A stretch of DNA of 64,000 nt from a virus. The DNA is taken from positions 64,001 through 128,000 of IMG/VR virus record IMGVR_UViG_3300028840_005764; one strand, written 5' to 3'. Both the position numbers and the translations under genes were made by a program. Below the pieces are notes generated by a model. The model was not told where the DNA came from and did no database searches. It was given only the letters and a program-made list of their open reading frames with translations. Of the stretch, positions 1,016-30,833 are shown one piece after another; the first letter of the stretch is position 1; every line of letters starts with the position of its first letter.

Positions 1016-4000
1016 ATGAAACACTTCGCACATCTGCACGTCCATTCTGAATATTCAATTCTTAAAGGGATTGGTGAGATCAAGTCCTGGTATGAAGCAG
1101 CTGCAAAGCGTGGGATATCGGCATTAGCTTTTACTGAATATGGGAATATGAATTCTGCTATGGCTTCTTATCTACAGTCATTAGATACGGATGGAGTGAA
1201 GGCAATATTTGGTATGCAAACTCTTGTTGTACAGGATGTGCATGCGACCATGCAAGAGGAACCAATAATATTACTGGCTAAAAATGAGACAGGTTATAAG
1301 AATTTATTGCAACTGAATAATTGGGCGTGGATAAATGGGTTTGATAGTAAACGTCAAACCGCACGCGTTGGCTATGAACAATTATATGATTACAGGAAGG
1401 GTTTATTTGCATTGACAGGCTCGCTTTCTGGGCCTGTGGCAATGGCTTCTGAAGTTGATTTTCATATTGCTGAAAGAGCTATTTATCAATTGAAAGAAAT
1501 ATTTGGTAAGCGCTTATATCTTGAACTTCAATTGAATGATGTACATGAACAAAAAATATATAATAATAAATTGATTAGATTATCACATAATACAAATGTA
1601 GAAATAGTTATTACAAACGATTGTCATTATCCCAATAAAGGAGAACACAAATTAGCTGATGTTGTGGAGAAAATAGATCGAATGAGTATTAAATCCTCTA
1701 AAAGAGGAAGATCATTTGATAGCACACAAAAGTGGTTAAAGAGTTATAAACAATTAAATATTATTAGAAATAAACTTCATGCTTATATTACATTAACAGA
1801 TTTTAATAAATATGTCTCGAATACTAATAAAATAGCGGAACAATGTAATGTTAGTATATCTATTGGTAAACATAGTTTGCCACAATATGATATAAAATCA
1901 CATCCTATGTATGAAGATGATATGAAAGATGATAAAGATTTATTTAATAAAATAGCTAAGACTGGATTTCGTAGTAAAATAATAAAAAGTAAAAAGAGAA
2001 AGAATAATAAAAAGAAATATTTGAAACAGTTTAAATATGAAGTTGATATTATAGGCAAAGCAAATTTCATAAATTATTTTTTAATTGTTGAAGATATTAT
2101 TAGATACGCGAGAGTATCAAATATTGAAGTGGGCGCAGCGCGCGGTTCTGTTGCTGGTTCATTGGTTGCATTCTGTATGGGTATTACTGATGTAGATCCG
2201 TTTGAATTTGATTTGATGTTTGAGCGTTTTTTGAATCCAACACGTATTAGTGGTGAGCGCGCGCAAAGTGCTGACGCGCTGCCTGATATTGACTTGGATT
2301 TTGAGAGGGTAAGGCGCCCTGAAATTAAGAAATATTTAGTTGAAAAGTATGGAGAAGATAGAGTTTGTACAATTGGTTCGTATCAGACTATGAAATTGAA
2401 GAGTTTATTACGTGACTTACATAGAGCATTCGAACATCGTATACCAGATGAGACAGGTTATTATGATTATAGTAATGATGAATTATTTGCTTTAATTAGG
2501 AAATTAGACAAAGACAAAATTGATGACTTAGATAAAGCTTTGAATAAAAGTGAAGCGTTTAAGGAGTTTTATAAAAGATTTCCTTATTTTGTTGACTTTT
2601 ATTTGAAGAAACTTGATGGGCAAATTCGTTCACGCTCTAAACATGCGGCTGGTGTCATTGTGACACCAACATCCATATCAGATTGGATTCCGATTAGGAC
2701 ACAGAAGGTTGAAGATGAAGAGGAACGAGTCGCTGTTTCACAGTGGGAAGATACCTTTTGTGAGCGTCGTGGTTTGCTTAAGTTAGATGTGCTTGGCATC
2801 AAGACCCTCAACGTTTTCAAACGTGCCAGGGAGCTTATCCTCAAGCGACGCGGTAAAAAGATCGATCTATCTAAAGTTAGGTTGGACGACCAGGATGTGT
2901 TTGATGAATTTGATGCTGGTAAAACCGAGGGTGTTTTTCAGTTTAATTCTCATTTACAGAGTCAATATCTGAAGCGTTTAGATGTGACAGAGTTTGAAGA
3001 TCTTATTACTACTAATGCTTTGTTGCGGCCTGGCCCAATGGATGCGAAGGCTCATGAATTATATATTGAATTGAAGTCTGGTGAACGCAAACCAAAATAT
3101 GATCATCCTATGATTGAACCGTATCTGCGTAGGACATATGGACTTTATGTGTATCAGGAAGACGTTATGCGCACTGCGCATGTTCTTGGTAAATTGACTT
3201 TGGCAGAAGCAGATATTATGCGCACTGCTATGAAAAAACACGACAAAGATCAGATGGAGGCTTTTCGTGAGAAATTTGTTAAAGGATGTGTGGAAAATGG
3301 TTTGAAGAAAAAACATGGGAATAAGGTTTGGGATAAATTACTGGCATTTTTTGCTTATGGTTTCAATAGATGTATACACGCCTTTTCAGAAATAACTCTA
3401 TCAAATGGTAAAAAAAGAAGAATATCTAGATTGTATAATGATTATCTAAAAGGGAAGGAAATAGTATTAAAAAGTTATGATATAGAAACTGGAAAAATTG
3501 TTGATAATGTAGTTGAAGAGATTGTATATACTGGTAAAAAGAATTTAGCTAAGTTTTTTCTACAAGATGGTAAGAATATACGGTTGACAAGTAGACACGG
3601 TATTGGCACTGATCGTGGTTTTCGATTGATGAAAGATATTATTAATACCGATCTGATTTGGATATTAAATGGAAGTGAGGCGCAACAAGTTGGCGTTGAT
3701 GCTTATAATACTTTTTATGATGATAGATACAAAGAAGATACATATGATATTGTAATGGTAAATAAACCGCATAATTATTTCGCCAATGACATACTTGTTC
3801 ATAACAGCCACAGCGCAAGCTATGCATTGATTGGATATCTTTGTCAATGGTTGAAAGTATATTATCCGCTTGAATATTGGTCTGCGACATTAGAGTACGC
3901 TGCAGACGACGAAAAGAAGTCTGAAAATATATGGACTTTTCGTAGTACTATTATTAAGTATGGATATCAATTTGAACGCCCACGTGCAAATCGCAGTGAT

Positions 4001-5776: not shown

Positions 5777-6769
5777 ATGGCCGTCAAGACTGACCTGGCC
5801 AAGCTAGGTAAACGGGCCGCCGATCATAAAGCTGGTAGGGACAGATATGACGGCCCAGGCAATTTCATAGTTGAAGCAGATTCAAGCAGGTTCATCATTC
5901 TCTGCCCACCGCACGAAAACATGGGTGGTTATCCATTCGTCGAAAACATGTATCATCACCGTGATATACCACGGGATGCTAATGGTAGTTTCAACATCCG
6001 CTGTATGCGGAATAACTACAAAGATGATACTAATAAATGCGCACCTTGTACAAAGATGGTCAAATTCAGAAAGAAGCGCAAGGACAAGGGCGACAAATGG
6101 GATGAGAAAGCGCGCGAACACGCACCAAAGTTGAAGCCAATTGGGCAGGTGATCGACATTACCTGTATCATGCGTGCCAATGGCGAGATTAAGAAAAAAG
6201 TCAAGCCGTGTTTTGGCGCTTATGGCGACGAAGACGGTTGTGACAAGTGCTATATGCGCGACGCGTGTGAGGACCTCCCCAAGAAGTACTATTGCCCAGT
6301 GGGCGTGTGGGAGGAGCTGCTCGACCATTTCGAGGACGAGGGCGACATCACAGACTTGAGTAAGGCTATCCCAATTCGTATTAAGCGTAAGGGTTCTGGT
6401 CGCTACGATACGAAGTACAAGACCAAGGCCTTCCCAAAGTCGGCTATCGAGTTCCCATCCAAAGCCAGGAAGCGTATCGAGAAAGCGCTCTATGATCTAA
6501 GTACTCTGGATCCAAAACCAGAGGGTACGGCGGATGAGATAAAAGAAAAGTACAGAAAGTTCTTCTCACTGGAGGATATAGATACTGACACCAGTGGCGA
6601 TGATGATGACGACGAGCCCAAGCGTCGTCCGCGGTCTGGTGGTAAGAAAAAATCTGCAAAGAAAAATAACAAAAAGAAGTCCAGTGAGAATACGGACAAA
6701 AAGAAACGCGGCGAGAAGCTCAGGAACAAGTTGAAGAAGAAAGCGAAGAAGGGCAAACTCGACCGTTAG
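5777..6769 (+). CDS. gp32-like single-stranded DNA-binding protein (putative)
   Basis: Zn-type H...C...CxxC, GDITDL...IRIKRKGSG..DTKY core, acidic patch; sits next to recA. Confidence 0.65.
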   Translation: MAVKTDLAKLGKRAADHKAGRDRYDGPGNFIVEADSSRFIILCPPHENMGGYPFVENMYHHRDIPRDANGSFNIRCMRNNYKDDTNKCAPCTKMVKFRKKRKDKGDKWDEKAREHAPKLKPIGQVIDITCIMRANGEIKKKVKPCFGAYGDEDGCDKCYMRDACEDLPKKYYCPVGVWEELLDHFEDEGDITDLSKAIPIRIKRKGSGRYDTKYKTKAFPKSAIEFPSKARKRIEKALYDLSTLDPKPEGTADEIKEKYRKFFSLEDIDTDTSGDDDDDEPKRRPRSGGKKKSAKKNNKKKSSENTDKKKRGEKLRNKLKKKAKKGKLDR

Positions 6770-23661: not shown

Positions 23662-24225
23662 TTATTGAGTTTTTGGTCTTGGATATCTTTTTATTGGCCT
23701 GGGGTATCTTTTTATTTTTGCATTAAGTTCTTTTTTCTTACCGCCATTCCATAATTTGTTTTGACAAATATATCCTATAGTAGACAAATGCACTCCATAT
23801 ATTGATGCAATGTATTTTAATGTATTACCATGTGTACGTAGTGTCTTAATCTCTTCAACGTCTTGTTCAGATAATTTAGCACTTGGATTTTTAGAACCCA
23901 CTAATGAACGTTGATCAAGTATCATGTCATTCATATTATCTTGATGTGTGCCGATGATTAAATGTTTTGGGTTACAGCACAATGTATTATTGCATGTGTG
24001 TCGCACACACATACCACTTGGGATTGGTCCATTGACATCTTCATACACAAGTCTGTGGGCCCTATACCATTTGCGATGTTTTTTTGAATAGTATACTTTG
24101 AACTCACCATAGTAGTTGTTAGTGCGACCCGATCTGGACTTCGCACCAGTCCATAACCAACATTCGTTAGGACCGCGCTGTTCTATCTTCTCCCATATGC
24201 GTTTGTGTATCTCTTTGTCGATCAT
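23662..24225 (-). CDS. HNH homing endonuclease with C-terminal HTH
   Basis: CWLWTG, AHRLVY, VRHTCNN..CCNP.HL..GT..DN, AKL....V.EI. Confidence 0.9.
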   Translation of the reverse strand: MIDKEIHKRIWEKIEQRGPNECWLWTGAKSRSGRTNNYYGEFKVYYSKKHRKWYRAHRLVYEDVNGPIPSGMCVRHTCNNTLCCNPKHLIIGTHQDNMNDMILDQRSLVGSKNPSAKLSEQDVEEIKTLRTHGNTLKYIASIYGVHLSTIGYICQNKLWNGGKKKELNAKIKRYPRPIKRYPRPKTQ

Positions 24226-24322: not shown

Positions 24323-24396
24323 TGCCACGGGAGGGATTCGAACCCTCACTTATGCGATTTTAAGTCGCATGCCTCTACCAGTTGGGCTACTGTGGC
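24323..24396 (-). tRNA. tRNA-Leu(TAA), short variable loop
   Basis: TGCGA-CTTAAAA-TCGCA. Confidence 0.87.
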
Positions 24397-24401
24397 GTGA
24401 A

Positions 24402-24534
24402 TCGGGAGAGGTGGAATCGAACCACCGACCTGGGAGCTCCATATGCTGAAGTGGCGTCTTAGTTCCATGTGTGAGGCACGAGCGTTAGTTTAGACGTCAC
24501 TTACATCCCCGCTCTACCACTGAGCTATCTCCCG
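24402..24534 (-). ncRNA. tRNA-Pro-like RNA with about 61-nt structured insertion in the anticodon loop
   Basis: Intact acceptor CGGGAGA/TCTCCCG-A, D and T arms; 68-nt anticodon loop containing GAACT-N10-TTCAGCATA. Confidence 0.75.
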
Positions 24535-24537
24535 AAA

Positions 24538-24680
24538 GGTGGACGGGCTAGGATTCGAACCTAGAAAAACTATGCTGAAACAACTTCTGAGTTCTCAATC
24601 GTATTGAGTGATGAAAGAAATTGTTGTTGCTTGCGTTGCTAGCTCTATAGGCTAGTGCCTTACCATTTGGCTACCCGTCC
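24538..24680 (-). ncRNA. tRNA-Tyr-like RNA (anticodon ATA) with about 60-nt structured insertion in the variable arm
   Basis: GGACGGG/CCCGTCC-A, CTAGC-CTATAGA-GCTAG; insert contains GAACT-N10-TTCAGCATA. Confidence 0.75.
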
Positions 24681-24681
24681 A

Positions 24682-24758
24682 TGGTGGGGGCAATAGGACT
24701 CGAACCTATAGCCATCTGCTTGTAAGGCAGACACTCTGCGCAATTGAGTTATGCCCCC
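24682..24758 (-). tRNA. tRNA-Val(TAC)
   Basis: TCTGC-CTTACAA-GCAGA, ACCA end. Confidence 0.9.
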
Positions 24759-27841: not shown

Positions 27842-28825
27842 TTACGCACCTGCTGAGCACAGAGACACATAAGGGTAGCCTTGCCGTTCCTTATACAGAA
27901 TTTGCCCAGCCAGTTGTTGGTTGGCTACAGTCGCCACACTCATCTTGGGCAGTCTGCTGTCGGCTGCACCTTCTGACAGCAGCGGCTGTTGTGTCACGTG
28001 TTCGATCGTTTTTTCGCTCAGCAGTTTGACCTGCGCATTGGCGTTTTTCAGTGCGCGGTGAATACCAGCCAGCGATTTGACCTCCACGCTCATGGGCACA
28101 AAGAATTTTGACGCTTGCCTGTGCCGCTTTTGATACTGAATTGCGAGTGAGCCGTAGCAGACTCTTATCAGTGGTTCCCACACACGTTCCCAGAACGCCA
28201 TGTTTGGAGCGCGTTCGACACCAACCACGTTTTCTCCCAGCAAGATGATGGCACCAATTTGTTTTGGCACCAACTCAAACTCAGCTACGAACTCATCCAG
28301 CTGCTTTTCAAAGTGCTTCAAGAAGTAAGTGAGGTGGCCACCAGTATGTGGCACTCCACTTTCTTTGTTCAGACTTCTGATGTGCGGCCAGATCTTGTCA
28401 TAACCTTGTCTGTGTCTCATACTGAGAGCATGAGATCGTATTGATGCTGGCAATACCAACATGGTGATCGCTTTCTGGTCTCTGATGTAACCACCTTGGC
28501 TGTCCTCGATGCACATGGCTGTCTCGATGGACTTGCGGCCGTTTGCTTTGACCAAAAACGCGCTTGGCACAGCGTGGTCTTGTGCACGTTCTCTTGTCAC
28601 CCAACCAGCACCTGTCGGTACGATGCTTGGTCGTGTGCTGTCTGTATTGCGCACTTGAACCGTACCATAGTTCGATGTTTCCACATGGAAGTCTGGTGGT
28701 GCGAAGTCGTCATCTTGCGCGTCGCCCTCGTCGATGAGCGGGATGACAGACATGTGGCCCACGGTTTGGGTTCTGCCACGTCCCATTCCTCTGAGGATTT
28801 CTTCGACTGTGAGGTTGCGTGTCAT
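27842..28825 (-). CDS. ARPP-1/DUF6569-like protein (putative)
   Basis: Q....M.VIPL, V.V.N....P, G.....QD.A, CIE..Q, Q..IW, F.....QIGA pattern recalled for this family; ATGA-coupled to the vWA gene. Confidence 0.55.
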   Translation of the reverse strand: MTRNLTVEEILRGMGRGRTQTVGHMSVIPLIDEGDAQDDDFAPPDFHVETSNYGTVQVRNTDSTRPSIVPTGAGWVTRERAQDHAVPSAFLVKANGRKSIETAMCIEDSQGGYIRDQKAITMLVLPASIRSHALSMRHRQGYDKIWPHIRSLNKESGVPHTGGHLTYFLKHFEKQLDEFVAEFELVPKQIGAIILLGENVVGVERAPNMAFWERVWEPLIRVCYGSLAIQYQKRHRQASKFFVPMSVEVKSLAGIHRALKNANAQVKLLSEKTIEHVTQQPLLSEGAADSRLPKMSVATVANQQLAGQILYKERQGYPYVSLCSAGA

Positions 28826-30435
28826 GACAGTGCCTTTCTCGTCTCAACTGACCCCAGGGCCAGACGTAGTAGGGCGTTGATTCCATTCACTGGCTCTGCC
28901 TCGATCATCCCTCGGATGAAGGTGGCTGTGAGCTGCCCAGGTTGCTGCACTGGCATTGTTGGTACACCGTCGTTGGGCGCCAGCTCACGTGCACCTTTCG
29001 ACTCGGCAGCGAACACCGGGTTTAAATGATACACAGGCGTATCAATACCGATCTCCCGCACGTGGTGCATGACCTCAGCGAAGCGCCCGGCTGGTGCATT
29101 CTCGTATCCGTCGCTGATCACGAACACAGCCTCGGGTTCGTCGTTCAGCGCCTCCACCAAGCTGTCAGCAATGGCTGTGTCACCCATCGGACGGACGAGA
29201 CCATCGCCAGCTTCGATGTCTGTACCACTGACATGGTACTCCTGACTCTCATCACCGGTGTGCAACAGGGTGTCGCGCATGGCCAAGGCCACCGCCAGGG
29301 GTCGCAGTGGTTGGCTGCGGTGACCAGCCATCGATTGTGACGCGTCCACGATGACGGCCACCGATTTGTAGCGCGTTGGGAACATCGCTGCGGTCTCCTT
29401 CGCCTTCTCGTCCAAGGCGTTCGCAATCTCTTGCGTCAGCCCACACTCGAACGCGTAGAGGTATAGGCGCACAGCGTCGTACTTCGTCGGGTCCATGTCG
29501 ACTTCGACGTTTGCGCGCTTTGCTCTTTTCTGTACTGCCATCTTCTGGTGGCCGGTGAGCTTGCCGCCCTTGGCCACAAGTTTCAGCACATCCTCCTTCT
29601 TCGTGTCGGGGTGGTATGTGCTTCTCAGGCCCTCCAGGACCTCCAGAGGAAGTTTAGAGCCAGCCTTGATATCTTCCTTCGCTTTTTCAAACGAAACGAA
29701 GAGAGGCAGGCTCAGGCGTTCACGCACGTCCAGGATGAAGCCCACGCACTCGAGCACTTCCTTGTATCTGTTCAGCTGGCAGTGCTTCCGGATGTTCTGC
29801 TCGAGAATCGTTAGCTCCTTCTTCTTTCGGTAACGCCCACCCTTCTTCAGGATCGATCCGATGATTGATGTTAGCCGTAGGCCCCAGGCGTGGGTCAGTG
29901 CCGCCCGCATTTTTGTCCTGTACTTCACCGACCAGAGTTGCAGTCTCGGGCTCGAGAGCAGCGTGCGCAGGATCAGTTTTCTTGTCCTGGCGTTGTTCGC
30001 CTTCTTCAGACCCAGGGATGCATCACCCACCCGCAGTCCATCGATCAGCTTCAACATGCGCTGTGGTGGCAGAGCTTGGAACAGGTGGTACAGCACCATG
30101 CGTTCTTGTCCCGGCTCGAGGAACGCTTGTTCCACGCCGTTCCGGGGGAATGACAGCAGCTTCTTCATACCGATCTGCACGCTGCGGTCGGTCAACCCTG
30201 GCAGCGTCAACAGCACGGCGTATACGTCCCTCTCCAGGCCAAAGAGTTCGTCGTGCACACGCAGTTCGGCAGCCTGTTGTTCGGCGCGCGTGTTGTAGTG
30301 CGTCGCGCGCCCCATGGAGCTGACAGCTGTGTCCAGGAATGAGCAGACGGATTTGCTCATCTTCTTCACAGCAGTCTTGTTCCGTGGCATCCACAGCAGC
30401 TGTTCATTCGAGTGCGTTTGCACCAACGTATTCAT
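28822..30435 (-). CDS. Helical domain + vWA (MIDAS) protein, Ro60/TROVE-like architecture
   Basis: C-terminal vWA: VIVDASQSM (DxSxS), GDT, VISDGYEN. About 350-aa basic helical N-terminus, 537 aa total; structured RNAs lie upstream. Confidence 0.65.
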   Translation of the reverse strand: MNTLVQTHSNEQLLWMPRNKTAVKKMSKSVCSFLDTAVSSMGRATHYNTRAEQQAAELRVHDELFGLERDVYAVLLTLPGLTDRSVQIGMKKLLSFPRNGVEQAFLEPGQERMVLYHLFQALPPQRMLKLIDGLRVGDASLGLKKANNARTRKLILRTLLSSPRLQLWSVKYRTKMRAALTHAWGLRLTSIIGSILKKGGRYRKKKELTILEQNIRKHCQLNRYKEVLECVGFILDVRERLSLPLFVSFEKAKEDIKAGSKLPLEVLEGLRSTYHPDTKKEDVLKLVAKGGKLTGHQKMAVQKRAKRANVEVDMDPTKYDAVRLYLYAFECGLTQEIANALDEKAKETAAMFPTRYKSVAVIVDASQSMAGHRSQPLRPLAVALAMRDTLLHTGDESQEYHVSGTDIEAGDGLVRPMGDTAIADSLVEALNDEPEAVFVISDGYENAPAGRFAEVMHHVREIGIDTPVYHLNPVFAAESKGARELAPNDGVPTMPVQQPGQLTATFIRGMIEAEPVNGINALLRLALGSVETRKALS

Positions 30436-30493: not shown

Positions 30494-30563
30494 TAGCGGT
30501 AATTACGGAAGCTGGGTCTTTGACATAAACTATTTGTCTGAACCAGCATCACAGTTCCCGCTA
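30494..30563 (-). ncRNA. Y-RNA-like element A (module only, no tRNA domain)
   Basis: TAGCGG/CCGCTA outer stem, GAACT-GTGATGCTGG-TTCAG, GCTGG/CCAGC stem. Confidence 0.6.
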
Positions 30564-30570
30564 AAAGAAA

Positions 30571-30694
30571 TGGTTGAGTCAATTAGAGCATCACGTTTTC
30601 TAAGTGACTGGACTTGAACCAGCTACCTACGGTTTTCAGGACCGTTGCTCTTTCCAACTGAGCTACACTAAAGTGACCCTCAAGTTCTCAACCA
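30571..30694 (-). ncRNA. Y-RNA-like element B: tRNA D/anticodon/T arms capped by the extended module stem
   Basis: TGGTTGAG/CTCAACCA outer stem, GAACT-TGAGGGTCAC-TTTAG, D arm GCTC..GAGC, ACGGT/ACCGT, GCTGG-TTCAAGT-CCAGT. Confidence 0.75.
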
Positions 30695-30709: not shown

Positions 30710-30833
30710 AGCGAGGGAAGTAGGACATCACGATTGAGTGAAAGAGAAGGATTTGAACCTTCAACCTTCGGCTCTGCATGCCGATGCTCGACCACTCGAG
30801 CTGTCTTCCTAAAGTGACCTCCAAGTTCTCGCT
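30710..30833 (-). ncRNA. Y-RNA-like element C: tRNA D/anticodon/T arms capped by the extended module stem
   Basis: AGCGAG/CTCGCT outer stem, GAACT-TGGAGGTCAC-TTTAG, GCTCG/CGAGC, TCGGC/GCCGA, GAAGG-TTCAAAT-CCTTC. Confidence 0.75.

What the first reader, a model, noticed from the sequence alone, without database searches (positions are those of the whole stretch)
24402..24680. The same 60-nt RNA module is inserted into a tRNA anticodon loop and a tRNA variable arm, 6 kb from the vWA operon
Seen: two adjacent tRNA bodies each carry an insert of about 60 nt ending in TTCAGCATA. Each insert contains GAACT-N10-TTCAG (plus-strand 24446-24465 and 24575-24594), with exactly the spacing found at 30538, 30668 and 30809. 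The N10 differs in every copy but pairs with a compensating strand (AAGTGACGTCT/AGACGCCACTT; AACAATTTCT/AGAAGTTGTT). The outer stem of elements A-C is here closed as a hairpin, i.e. a circular permutation. Removing the first insert leaves loop GT-TGG-AG, a Pro anticodon matching its C1-G72/A73 acceptor. Removing the second restores a Tyr-type AAC-GCAA-GTT variable arm, with the unusual anticodon ATA. Normal Pro(TGG) and Tyr(GTA) genes exist elsewhere in the array. Inference: this is a portable protein-binding handle grafted onto tRNAs at three positions (acceptor, anticodon, variable arm), or a new tiny intron-like element processed by the vWA/ARPP proteins.
Basis: partly seen in the sequence, partly recalled or inferred. 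Interest (0 to 1): 0.9.

Follow-up and report, generated by a model that had tools for sequence, protein, structure and literature searches.

The report
Ro60-type RNA handle grafted onto tRNAs
Two neighbouring phage tRNA genes each carry a ~60-nt hairpin that is a closed, circularly permuted copy of the RNA "handle" on the Y-RNA-like genes beside the phage's Ro60-like protein, so they are most likely tRNA-shaped partners of that protein, not tRNAs with introns.

Summary
On the minus strand, 24680..24540 (141 nt) and 24534..24402 (133 nt) are complete tRNA scaffolds (Rfam tRNA 55 and 49 bits). One has a ~60-nt insert in the variable arm, the other in the anticodon loop. Both inserts carry GAACU-N10-UUCAG. 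This motif occurs 5 times in the 142.9-kb phage genome (0.54 expected), only here and on three RNAs upstream of the 537-aa gene.

That gene encodes a divergent Ro60: TROVE-like ring plus vWA with an intact MIDAS motif (VIA Z 13-17 to Ro60 structures over ~400 residues). The motif belongs to a covarying handle: outer stem, AACUNN/7-nt internal loop, 8-10-bp stem, UUCAG. A covariance model of the handle hit 45 times in about 1 Mb of phage and bacterial loci, 44 times within ~600 nt upstream of a Ro60-like gene.

In relatives the handle carries a tRNA-like body at the acceptor, a permuted YrlA-type body, or a plain hairpin. Only this phage closes it as a hairpin inside full tRNAs.

Splicing is unsupported: no intron family matches, no phage RNA ligase was found, and excision would leave a poor Pro anticodon arm.

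Best reading: unspliced Y-RNA-like tRNA chimeras bound by the Ro60-like protein. This is a new variant of a known kind. Nothing was shown experimentally.

The parts
24540..24680 (-). E1: full tRNA scaffold (type-II-like, G1-C72, A73, anticodon loop CUAUAGA) with the handle in the variable arm
   Evidence: Rfam tRNA 55.2 bits, full model. Cloverleaf plus closed handle gives -42.0 kcal/mol against an MFE of -42.7; z = -4.8 against shuffles.
24571..24625 (-). E1 closed handle: 10-bp stem AACAAUUUCU/AGAAGUUGUU, 7-nt strand UUCAUCA, capping hairpin CUCAAU-ACG-AUUGAG, AACUC, tail UCAGCAUA
   Evidence: Model R2 scores it at 68.2 bits.
24402..24534 (-). E2: full tRNA scaffold (C1-G72, A73, Pro-like acceptor) with the handle in the anticodon loop between U33 and UGG
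   Evidence: Rfam tRNA 49.1 bits with a 70-nt local insert. The cloverleaf fold is 15 kcal/mol above the MFE.
24442..24502 (-). E2 closed handle: stem AAGUGACGUCU/AGACGCCACUU (one A-C mismatch), weak capping hairpin, GGAACUA, tail (U)UCAGCAUA
   Evidence: Model R2 scores it at 76.3 bits.
30710..30833 (-). Open handle C carrying a tRNA-like body ('Cys GCA') attached through its acceptor stem
30572..30693 (-). Open handle B carrying a tRNA-like body ('Ser UGA') attached through its acceptor stem
30495..30562 (-). Open handle A with a plain hairpin as cargo
   Evidence: Member of alignment A4. Model R1 scores it at 56.7 bits.
28822..30435 (-). 537-aa divergent Ro60-like protein (TROVE-like helical ring plus vWA with MIDAS D364-x-S366-x-S368)
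   Evidence: AF2 model pLDDT 83. Foldseek top 10 matches are all Ro60/TROVE entries. VIA Z 17.2, 15.7 and 13.0 over ~400 residues. MIDAS residues are invariant in 33 homologues.
27842..28825 (-). ARPP-1 domain protein, overlapping the Ro60-like ORF by 4 nt
   Evidence: Pfam PF20208, E 6.6e-27. The same gene pair is seen in the phage and metagenome loci whose genes were listed and in 5 of 5 bacterial genomes.

Best explanation
E1 and E2 are stable, unspliced chimeric ncRNAs: complete tRNA scaffolds that carry the recognition handle of the phage's Ro60-like protein. The handle is closed by a hairpin. In E1 it projects from the variable arm; in E2 it replaces the tip of the anticodon arm. The proposed sequence of events is inferred, not shown. 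The two RNAs would be transcribed with the surrounding tRNA cluster. Host RNase P and 3'-end/CCA enzymes would cut them out, because the acceptor stems are canonical. The Ro60-like ring would then bind the conserved GRGAACU/internal-loop/UUCAG handle, as canonical Ro60 binds the conserved stem of Y RNAs. The tRNA body would act as the effector module, as proposed for the tRNA-like domain of YrlA. It would tether the Ro60-like/ARPP-1 particle to a tRNA-binding partner, or present it as a tRNA mimic. What is shown: the handle is the same element as on the operon-proximal RNAs, it is under structural selection, and it is tied to Ro60-like genes. What is inferred: binding, processing and the role of the tRNA body.
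For: The motif is restricted to 5 sites, all in tRNA or tRNA-like contexts. The open handle has a covarying structure: 91% of cells paired, 11 of 15 pairs with double changes, 0/500 shuffles as high, slid controls at 36-50%. E1 and E2 keep the same geometry (10-bp stem, 5-nt AACUN strand opposite about 7 nt, capped outer stem, UUCAG) and differ by 4 compensatory pairs. Model R1 hits 23 times in 563 kb of phage loci and 22 times in 449 kb of bacterial loci. All 45 hits are on the gene strand, and 44 lie within ~600 nt upstream of a Ro60-like gene. The protein has the Ro60 fold over its full length. In relatives the handle carries normal-order tRNA-like bodies, permuted YrlA-type bodies (Rfam YrlA 29 bits on L011; Minicystis rosea) or hairpins, so its cargo and topology are interchangeable. 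The tail UUCAGCA(U) is shared by E1, E2 and the YrlA-type RNAs of L008, L010 and L011. The tRNA-like bodies next to Ro60-like genes carry unconserved anticodons, several with A34. This fits E1's AUA. M. smegmatis YrlA is cut by RNase P and receives CCA (PMC4201824), so a Y RNA with an open tRNA acceptor end has a precedent.
Against: No homologue of the closed, tRNA-embedded form was found in 22 related phage records, 42 bacterial loci, IMG/VR or metagenome pattern scans. Its conservation therefore cannot be tested. E2 looks less well formed: an A-C mismatch in the stem, a weak cap, U31-C39 unpaired, and a cloverleaf fold 15 kcal/mol above an alternative in which the insert pairs with the D arm. 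The canonical Ro60 site GNCGAAN0-1G is absent.
Confidence: 0.55

Rival explanations
1. The inserts are small introns, or excisable handles. An unknown nuclease and ligase, possibly the Ro60-like/ARPP pair or host RtcB, would remove them to yield tRNA-Pro(UGG) and a shorter-armed tRNA(AUA).
For: Removing 24502..24442 leaves a 7-nt loop GU-UGG-AG on a scaffold with the Pro-type C1-G72/A73 acceptor. The phage's own tRNA-Pro also has C1-G72/A73. Insert-bearing tRNAs recur in the arrays beside Ro60-like genes of Minicystis and Haliangium.
Against: No group I or other intron or ribozyme family matches at E<=10. The junction is at 33/34, not the canonical 37/38. The excised product would have G32, A37 (the phage's own tRNA-Pro has G at that position), G38 and a U31-C39 mismatch. 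E1's anticodon loop is intact, so splicing would serve no purpose there. No RtcB, RNA_ligase or CCA-enzyme Pfam match in the phage. The Haliangium module sits beside a complete Asn anticodon arm, which suggests a permanent appendage.
Confidence: 0.1
2. They are decaying pseudo-tRNAs, made by recombination between a Y-like RNA gene and tRNA genes, with no present function.
For: No homologues were found elsewhere. E2 has a stem mismatch, a weak cap and an unfavourable cloverleaf energy. The scaffolds are not close copies of any phage tRNA.
Against: The two handles have diverged at 4 stem positions by compensatory double changes while keeping GAACU and UCAGCAUA exactly. All four tRNA stems of E1 and the acceptor, D and T stems of E2 are intact. 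E1 folds far better than shuffles, z = -4.8.
Confidence: 0.12
3. The handle is real, but another factor reads it: ARPP-1, a host protein or an RNase. Alternatively it is a processing or stability signal rather than a Ro60-like binding site.
For: Binding is only inferred from co-location. ARPP-1 is as tightly linked to the handle RNAs as the Ro60-like gene is. The canonical Ro60 motif is absent.
Against: Every characterised Ro60 orthologue binds ncRNAs encoded beside it through a conserved stem near a 5'-strand motif (PMC4201824, PMC12135203). Handle position and strand relative to the Ro60-like gene are invariant.
Confidence: 0.15
4. The pair should be read as one YrlA-type permuted unit: the E1 T arm, an acceptor hairpin and the E2 D arm, closed by pairing of the E1 3' stem strand with the E2 5' stem strand.
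For: Rfam YrlA gives a 20.6-bit partial match across the junction. The two strands can form 9 of 10 pairs, counting 3 G-U. Tandem permuted units exist in L040.
Against: The cross duplex is only -2.5 kcal/mol, against -8.4 and -10.8 for the within-gene stems. The acceptor hairpin would have 4 bp, against 7/7 in the tRNA reading. Tandem tRNAs are a known false positive of the YrlA model (PMC4201824); the ordinary Met-Lys tRNA pair of this phage scores 31 bits.
Confidence: 0.04

Closest known systems
YrlA-class bacterial and phage Y RNAs bound by Ro60/Rsr (Chen et al. 2014, PMC4201824; Rfam RF02553)
   Same: An ncRNA encoded on the same strand near a Ro60-type gene. It is built from a protein-binding stem module plus a tRNA-like module with genuine T and D arms. 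In E2, as in YrlA, the protein-binding module sits where the anticodon stem would continue.
   Different: E1 and E2 keep the normal tRNA order with an open 7-bp acceptor stem, and the handle is closed by a loop; YrlA is the reverse. E1 carries the handle on the variable arm. The conserved motif is GRGAACU...UUCAG, not GNCGAAN0-1G. The Rfam YrlA score is far below the gathering score. The protein is too divergent to match Pfam TROVE.
[quoted passage not shown]
   Same: Gives a Y RNA with a free, CCA-ended tRNA acceptor stem and a Ro60 module at the anticodon side. This is the same overall shape as E2.
   Different: That RNA is two base-paired pieces made by cleavage of a permuted precursor. E2 is one continuous strand encoded in tRNA order.
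Thermus phage phiLo Ro60 with Yrl1/Yrl2 (PMC12135203; PDB 9KOP, 9L5Y)
   Same: A phage-encoded Ro60 with its own Y-like RNAs just upstream. It is the best structural match to the 537-aa model (Z 17.2).
   Different: The phiLo RNAs use the CGAA motif and are plain stem-bulge-stem RNAs. No tRNA chimeras, no ARPP-1 partner and no tRNA-array context are described.
tRNA introns (bacterial group I in anticodon loops; archaeal/eukaryal bulge-helix-bulge introns)
   Same: An insert interrupts the anticodon loop of E2.
   Different: The insert is 61 nt with no group I core. It lies at 33/34, not 37/38. No ribozyme or intron family matches. The same element occurs in a variable arm and on non-tRNA hairpins, which introns do not do.

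Membership tests
YrlA / bacterial Y RNA | Encoded near a Ro60 orthologue on the same strand (published criterion: within 4 kb) | tested here: inconclusive
   Same strand. E1 starts 4.14 kb from the 3' end of the Ro60-like ORF and 3.2 kb from the end of the operon. This is borderline by the published cut-off.
YrlA / bacterial Y RNA | GNCGAAN0-1G motif near the 5' end | tested here: not met
   No CGAA in either handle. The conserved motif is GRGAACU.
YrlA / bacterial Y RNA | tRNA-like domain with T and D arms | tested here: met
   Rfam tRNA 55.2 and 49.1 bits over the full model.
YrlA / bacterial Y RNA | Permuted order: T arm, acceptor-like hairpin, D arm, with RNA ends in the Ro60 stem | tested here: not met
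   Normal tRNA order with an open acceptor. The alternative permuted reading is energetically poor.
YrlA / bacterial Y RNA | Rfam RF02553 score at or above gathering (69 bits) | tested here: not met
   20.6 bits, and only across the E1/E2 junction.
YrlA / bacterial Y RNA | Physically bound by Ro60 | not testable with these tools
   Needs RIP or EMSA.
Handle RNA family of the divergent Ro60-like clade (models R1, R2, defined here) | Outer stem, AACUNN opposite about 7 nt, covarying 8-10-bp stem, UUCAG | tested here: met
   All elements are present in E1 and E2 in circularly permuted order. The consensus comes from A4. R1 cannot score a permuted copy.
Handle RNA family of the divergent Ro60-like clade (models R1, R2, defined here) | Located within ~600 nt upstream of the Ro60-like gene | tested here: not met
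   E1 and E2 lie about 3-4 kb downstream of the operon, inside the tRNA array.
Ro60 / TROVE protein (for the 537-aa ORF) | Helical-repeat ring followed by a vWA domain with MIDAS | tested here: met
   Foldseek E 5e-6, top 10 matches all Ro60/TROVE entries. VIA Z 17.2 (9kop), 15.7 (1yvp) and 13.0 (2nvo), ~400 residues aligned. D364/S366/S368 invariant.
Ro60 / TROVE protein (for the 537-aa ORF) | Pfam TROVE or PDB sequence-level match | tested here: not met
   Pfam gives only a weak VWA_CoxE match, E 0.018. No Ro60 chain is found by phmmer or by the family profile.
tRNA intron (group I or other known ribozyme) | Match to an intron or ribozyme covariance model | tested here: not met
   cmscan of 24380-24700 at E<=10 lists only tRNA, a YrlA fragment and noise.
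tRNA intron (protein-spliced type) | Insert at 37/38, and a normal anticodon arm after excision | tested here: not met
   Only a 33/34 junction yields U33 plus a Pro anticodon. The product would have G32, A37, G38 and U31-C39 (compare the phage tRNA-Pro).
tRNA intron (protein-spliced type) | Bulge-helix-bulge motif at the junctions | not tested
   Inspected by eye only; none was obvious.
Decoding elongator tRNA | 7-nt anticodon loop with U33 and purine 37 | tested here: inconclusive
   E1 meets it (CUAUAGA), but with an A34 anticodon AUA. E2 does not, because the handle interrupts the loop.

The most novel reading that the evidence does not exclude
The handle is a portable tag that lets a Ro60-like/ARPP-1 particle capture genuine, chargeable tRNAs. 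E1, with acceptor and anticodon ends free and the handle projecting from the hinge, would still be aminoacylated. It would carry the particle to EF-Tu or the ribosome, or E2 would be matured by the particle. This would be a new RNP-guided tRNA-handling pathway, linked to the large tRNA arrays in which this operon sits in phages, Myxococcota and Planctomycetota.
Probability: 0.12. Interest if true: 0.9.

Novelty: new variant of a known kind. Interest (0 to 1): 0.64.

Why it matters
What the tRNA-like domain of bacterial Y RNAs does is an open question. Here the mimic is a complete tRNA scaffold, and the Ro60-type handle is clearly separable. It is found at the acceptor, anticodon and variable positions, and on plain hairpins, within one 142.9-kb genome. 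That gives a natural set of constructs for asking what the handle binds and what the tRNA part recruits. It also defines a divergent Ro60 clade, invisible to Pfam TROVE, with its own RNA motif and an obligatory ARPP-1 partner. This system is repeatedly embedded in large tRNA arrays of phages and bacteria, including the cultured Minicystis rosea. That points to a role in tRNA surveillance or in phage-host conflict over tRNAs.

Tried and rejected
2. Close relatives of the chimeras. The phage collection holds only ordinary tRNA matches.
3. The pattern GAACT-N11-TCAGCA-N3-30-GGTTCGAWTCC found only YrlA-type RNAs in IMG/VR (3 hits). In metagenomes it found 12 hits, which also included coding-sequence chance matches and a tandem permuted array, L040.
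None of the 47 that passed my stem or T-loop filter lay in a tRNA; they look like coding sequence. The scan was not exhaustive.
5. Closed-handle model R2 found only its own two training copies in the phage itself. It found nothing in 22 related phage records and nothing credible in 48 further loci. A two-sequence model and a prefilter limit its sensitivity.
6. The Rfam tRNA search of 5 complete related phages showed no hit longer than 92 nt among the top 150. The same route found only one of the two chimeras in the phage itself.
7. The independent assembly L054 is identical, so it gives no variation to analyse.
8. The E1 and E2 scaffolds are not near-copies of the phage tRNA-Pro or tRNA-Tyr, nor of the Y-like bodies.
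9. The cross-paired YrlA-type reading was rejected on energy.
10. The promoter/terminator scan was uninformative.
11. Rfam and ARAGORN did not recover it.
12. Sequence-level searches of the 537-aa protein against PDB, Pfam and PHROGs gave nothing. Only the fold comparison identified it.

Full report
THE SOURCE. The window is bases 64001-128000 of a complete 142,861-bp IMG/VR phage record with terminal repeats. GC content is 45%. A tRNA array runs on the minus strand from about 19.4 to 31 kb.

THE OBSERVATION. ARAGORN skips 24402-24680. The Rfam tRNA model matches two full-length tRNAs there, each with one large local insert: 24680..24540 (141 nt, 55.2 bits) and 24534..24402 (133 nt, 49.1 bits). 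I call them E1 and E2.

Both have 7/7 acceptor stems, canonical D and T arms, and A73. They sit in a packed cluster Asp-Phe-Val-E1-E2-Leu with spacers of 1-5 nt.

In E2 about 61 nt interrupt the anticodon loop between U33 and UGG. In E1 the anticodon arm is intact (loop CUAUAGA) and about 60-70 nt fill the variable region.

Both inserts contain GAACU-N10-UUCAG and end in UUCAGCAUA. GAACT-N10-TT[CT]AG occurs exactly five times in the whole genome, all on the minus strand: these two sites, plus 30557, 30687 and 30828. Shuffles predict 0.54. The longer GAACT-N11-TCAGCATA is unique to the two inserts.

In each insert the N10 pairs with an upstream strand to form a 10-bp stem. Between E1 and E2 four pairs differ on both sides. 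Pairing is 95.8%, against 33-46% when the partner strand is slid. An independent assembly is identical over 21.6 kb.

- Two of the three operon-proximal copies read UUUAG, and their N10 are nearly the same.
- The E2 cap hairpin is weak.
- The E2 stem has an A-C mismatch.
- The distance to the operon is 3-4 kb, not 6 kb.

THE PROTEIN. The 537-aa ORF (30435..28822) has no Pfam, PHROG or PDB sequence match beyond a weak VWA_CoxE signal. It has more than 480 homologues. Their alignment shows an invariant MIDAS motif, D364-x-S366-x-S368.

An AlphaFold model (pLDDT 83) matches Ro60 structures over its full length:
- Foldseek's top ten matches are all Ro60/TROVE entries, best E 4.9e-6.
- VIA-align gives Z 17.2 to Thermus phage phiLo Ro60, 15.7 to Xenopus Ro60 and 13.0 to Deinococcus Rsr. 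About 400 residues align, spanning 28-533.

It is therefore a divergent Ro60: a TROVE-like ring plus vWA.

The next gene, overlapping by 4 nt, is an ARPP-1 domain protein. This is an uncharacterised predicted enzyme family (PMC9503650). The pair is conserved in the phage and metagenome loci whose genes were listed and in 5 of 5 bacterial genomes checked.

THE HANDLE. Three RNAs lie upstream of the Ro60-like gene. Each has the layout: outer stem, GAGAACU, a strand of a middle stem, UU(C/U)AG, a cargo domain, the partner strand, about 7 nt, and the outer-stem partner. Two cargos are tRNA-like bodies joined through the acceptor stem (ARAGORN calls them 'Ser UGA' and 'Cys GCA'). The third is a hairpin.

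Relatives show the same arrangement. RNAalifold was run on ten hairpin-type copies from six phage contigs, one metagenome contig and this window. It gives a 7-bp outer stem, a 6-nt AACUNN strand opposite 7 nt, and an 8-bp middle stem. Eleven of 15 pairs carry compensatory changes. Pair counting gives 91% paired, a covariation score of 0.69 against 0.25 in shuffles (0/500 as high), and 36-50% paired when slid.

A covariance model of this alignment (R1) hit 23 times in 563 kb of phage loci and 22 times in 449 kb of bacterial loci. Every hit was on the gene strand. All but one lay within about 600 nt upstream of a Ro60-like gene. The handle is therefore a structured RNA element specifically coupled to this protein family. 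This is the relation that Y RNAs have to Ro60 (PMC4201824, PMC12135203).

TOPOLOGY. The cargo on the handle is interchangeable:
- Normal-order tRNA-like bodies are seen in this window and in L004-L006, L008-L011 and L027.
- Permuted YrlA-type bodies (T arm, acceptor hairpin, D arm) are seen in L007 and L031, in Minicystis rosea, and in L008/L010/L011/L037/L043. In these last five the unit lies between a promoter-like site and a U-run, just upstream of a tmRNA gene. Rfam YrlA scores 29 bits on L011.
- Plain hairpins also occur.

In E1 and E2 the same elements appear in circularly permuted order: stem strand, about 7 nt, capped outer stem, AACUN, stem strand, UUCAG. The RNA ends lie on the tRNA acceptor instead of the outer stem. 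The tail UUCAGCA(U) is shared with the YrlA-type RNAs of L008/L010/L011.

INTRON OR APPENDAGE. Several points argue against splicing:
- No intron or ribozyme family matches at E<=10.
- Only a 33/34 junction gives a 7-nt loop with U33 and UGG. The product would carry G32, A37, G38 and a U31-C39 mismatch. The phage's own tRNA-Pro has G at the position after its anticodon. From general knowledge, bacterial tRNA-Pro needs G37 for m1G.
- E1 needs no splicing.
- The phage lacks RtcB, RNA_ligase and CCA-enzyme Pfam matches.
- The same element sits on non-tRNA hairpins.
- The tRNA-like bodies beside Ro60-like genes carry unconserved anticodons: UGA, GCA, UAC, CAU, ACA, UUA, ACG. The A34 anticodons among them fit E1's AUA as a non-decoding relic.

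The precedent is M. smegmatis YrlA, which RNase P cleaves and the CCA enzyme extends in vivo (PMC4201824). That produces a Y RNA with an open tRNA acceptor end. E2 encodes this shape directly.

WEAK POINTS. I found no second example of a closed handle inside a tRNA.

E2 is less convincing than E1. Its cloverleaf plus handle folds at -27.8 kcal/mol. An alternative in which insert segments pair with the D arm reaches -42.6. E1 is near its MFE, with z = -4.8.

A reading of E1/E2 as one permuted unit is disfavoured. The cross duplex is -2.5 kcal/mol against -8.4 and -10.8 for the within-gene stems. Tandem tRNAs are known false positives of the YrlA model (PMC4201824).

Binding, transcription and processing are all inferred.

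WIDER CONTEXT. The Ro60-like/ARPP-1 pair with its handle RNAs occurs in Myxococcota, Planctomycetota, Actinomycetota and others. It often lies inside large tRNA arrays, for example 48 tRNA genes in 13.5 kb of Minicystis rosea.

That array also holds two adjacent tRNAs with about 50-nt inserts (L175 2780-2901 and 2909-3032). The inserts share a module with the same architecture as the E1/E2 handle: a 9-bp stem, 7-8 nt, a capped hairpin, 5 nt, and a conserved tail. The signature is different, and there are only two copies in 16 Mb. A third copy in a Haliangium MAG lies next to an intact Asn anticodon arm. Whether these are a sister handle is open, but they show that structured appendages on tRNAs recur beside this operon.

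VERDICT. The handle interpretation is supported in silico, and the intron interpretation is not. The system is a divergent member of the Ro60/Y-RNA world, and the tRNA-embedded closed handle is a new variant of it. I put 0.55 on the full mechanistic statement and about 0.85 on the narrower claim that the inserts are the same element as the operon-proximal handles.

Noticed in passing
L175 2780-2901 and 2909-3032 (Minicystis rosea CP016211.1); L204 2072-2196 (Haliangium MAG): Adjacent tRNAs in the array beside the Ro60-like gene carry a different ~50-nt module: 9-bp stem, 7-8 nt, GCCC..GGGC hairpin, 5 nt, tail UUAUCG. There are only 2 copies in the 16-Mb genome. In Haliangium the module sits between the D arm and an intact Asn(GUU) anticodon arm. 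The architecture matches E1/E2 but the signature differs.
   Followed up: partly
L175, L176, L180, L182, L184, L191, L197 (bacterial loci); window 19.4-31 kb: The Ro60-like/ARPP-1 operon is repeatedly embedded in large tRNA gene arrays (13-48 tRNA genes within about 9-13.5 kb) in Myxococcota and Planctomycetota, as in this phage.
   Followed up: partly
L011 6189-6340, L010 ~6310-6470, L008 ~3560-3830, L037, L043: A YrlA-type permuted tRNA-like RNA carries the same handle, bounded by a promoter-like site and a U-run. It lies immediately upstream of the phage tmRNA gene, several kb from the Ro60-like gene.
   Followed up: partly
L040 (metagenome contig Ga0180432_10262371): A tandem array of permuted tRNA-like units is interleaved with handle halves. 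Consecutive stem strands can pair either across a unit or locally.
   Followed up: no
L008 5339-5484, 5522-5637, 7304-7422; L010 3953-4159; L018 13148-13247; L024 8725-8870: My split-tRNA scan flags further tRNA-like genes of 100-207 nt with large internal inserts in phages that encode the Ro60-like protein. None shows the GAACU/UUCAG signature. One (L008 7304) has a T-arm-like hairpin inside the insert.
   Followed up: no
window 24402-24534 (-): The E2 insert segments CGCUC and GCCACU are complementary to its own D arm (GAGCG, AGUGGU). This gives an alternative fold 15 kcal/mol more stable than the cloverleaf. It could be chance or a conformational switch.
   Followed up: partly
L004 12725-12888; L008 619-693; L011 4137-4212: ARAGORN calls tRNAs with 4-nt anticodons (GGGA twice, CCUA, UUCA) in related huge phages.
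   Followed up: no
window 23662-24225 (-): An HNH homing-endonuclease-like gene (HNH_3, E 1.1e-14) lies directly downstream of the Leu(UAA) tRNA that follows E2.
   Followed up: no
Rfam (E<=0.1) and ARAGORN find only three ordinary tRNAs, plus a YrlA false positive across the Met-Lys tRNA pair.
   Followed up: partly
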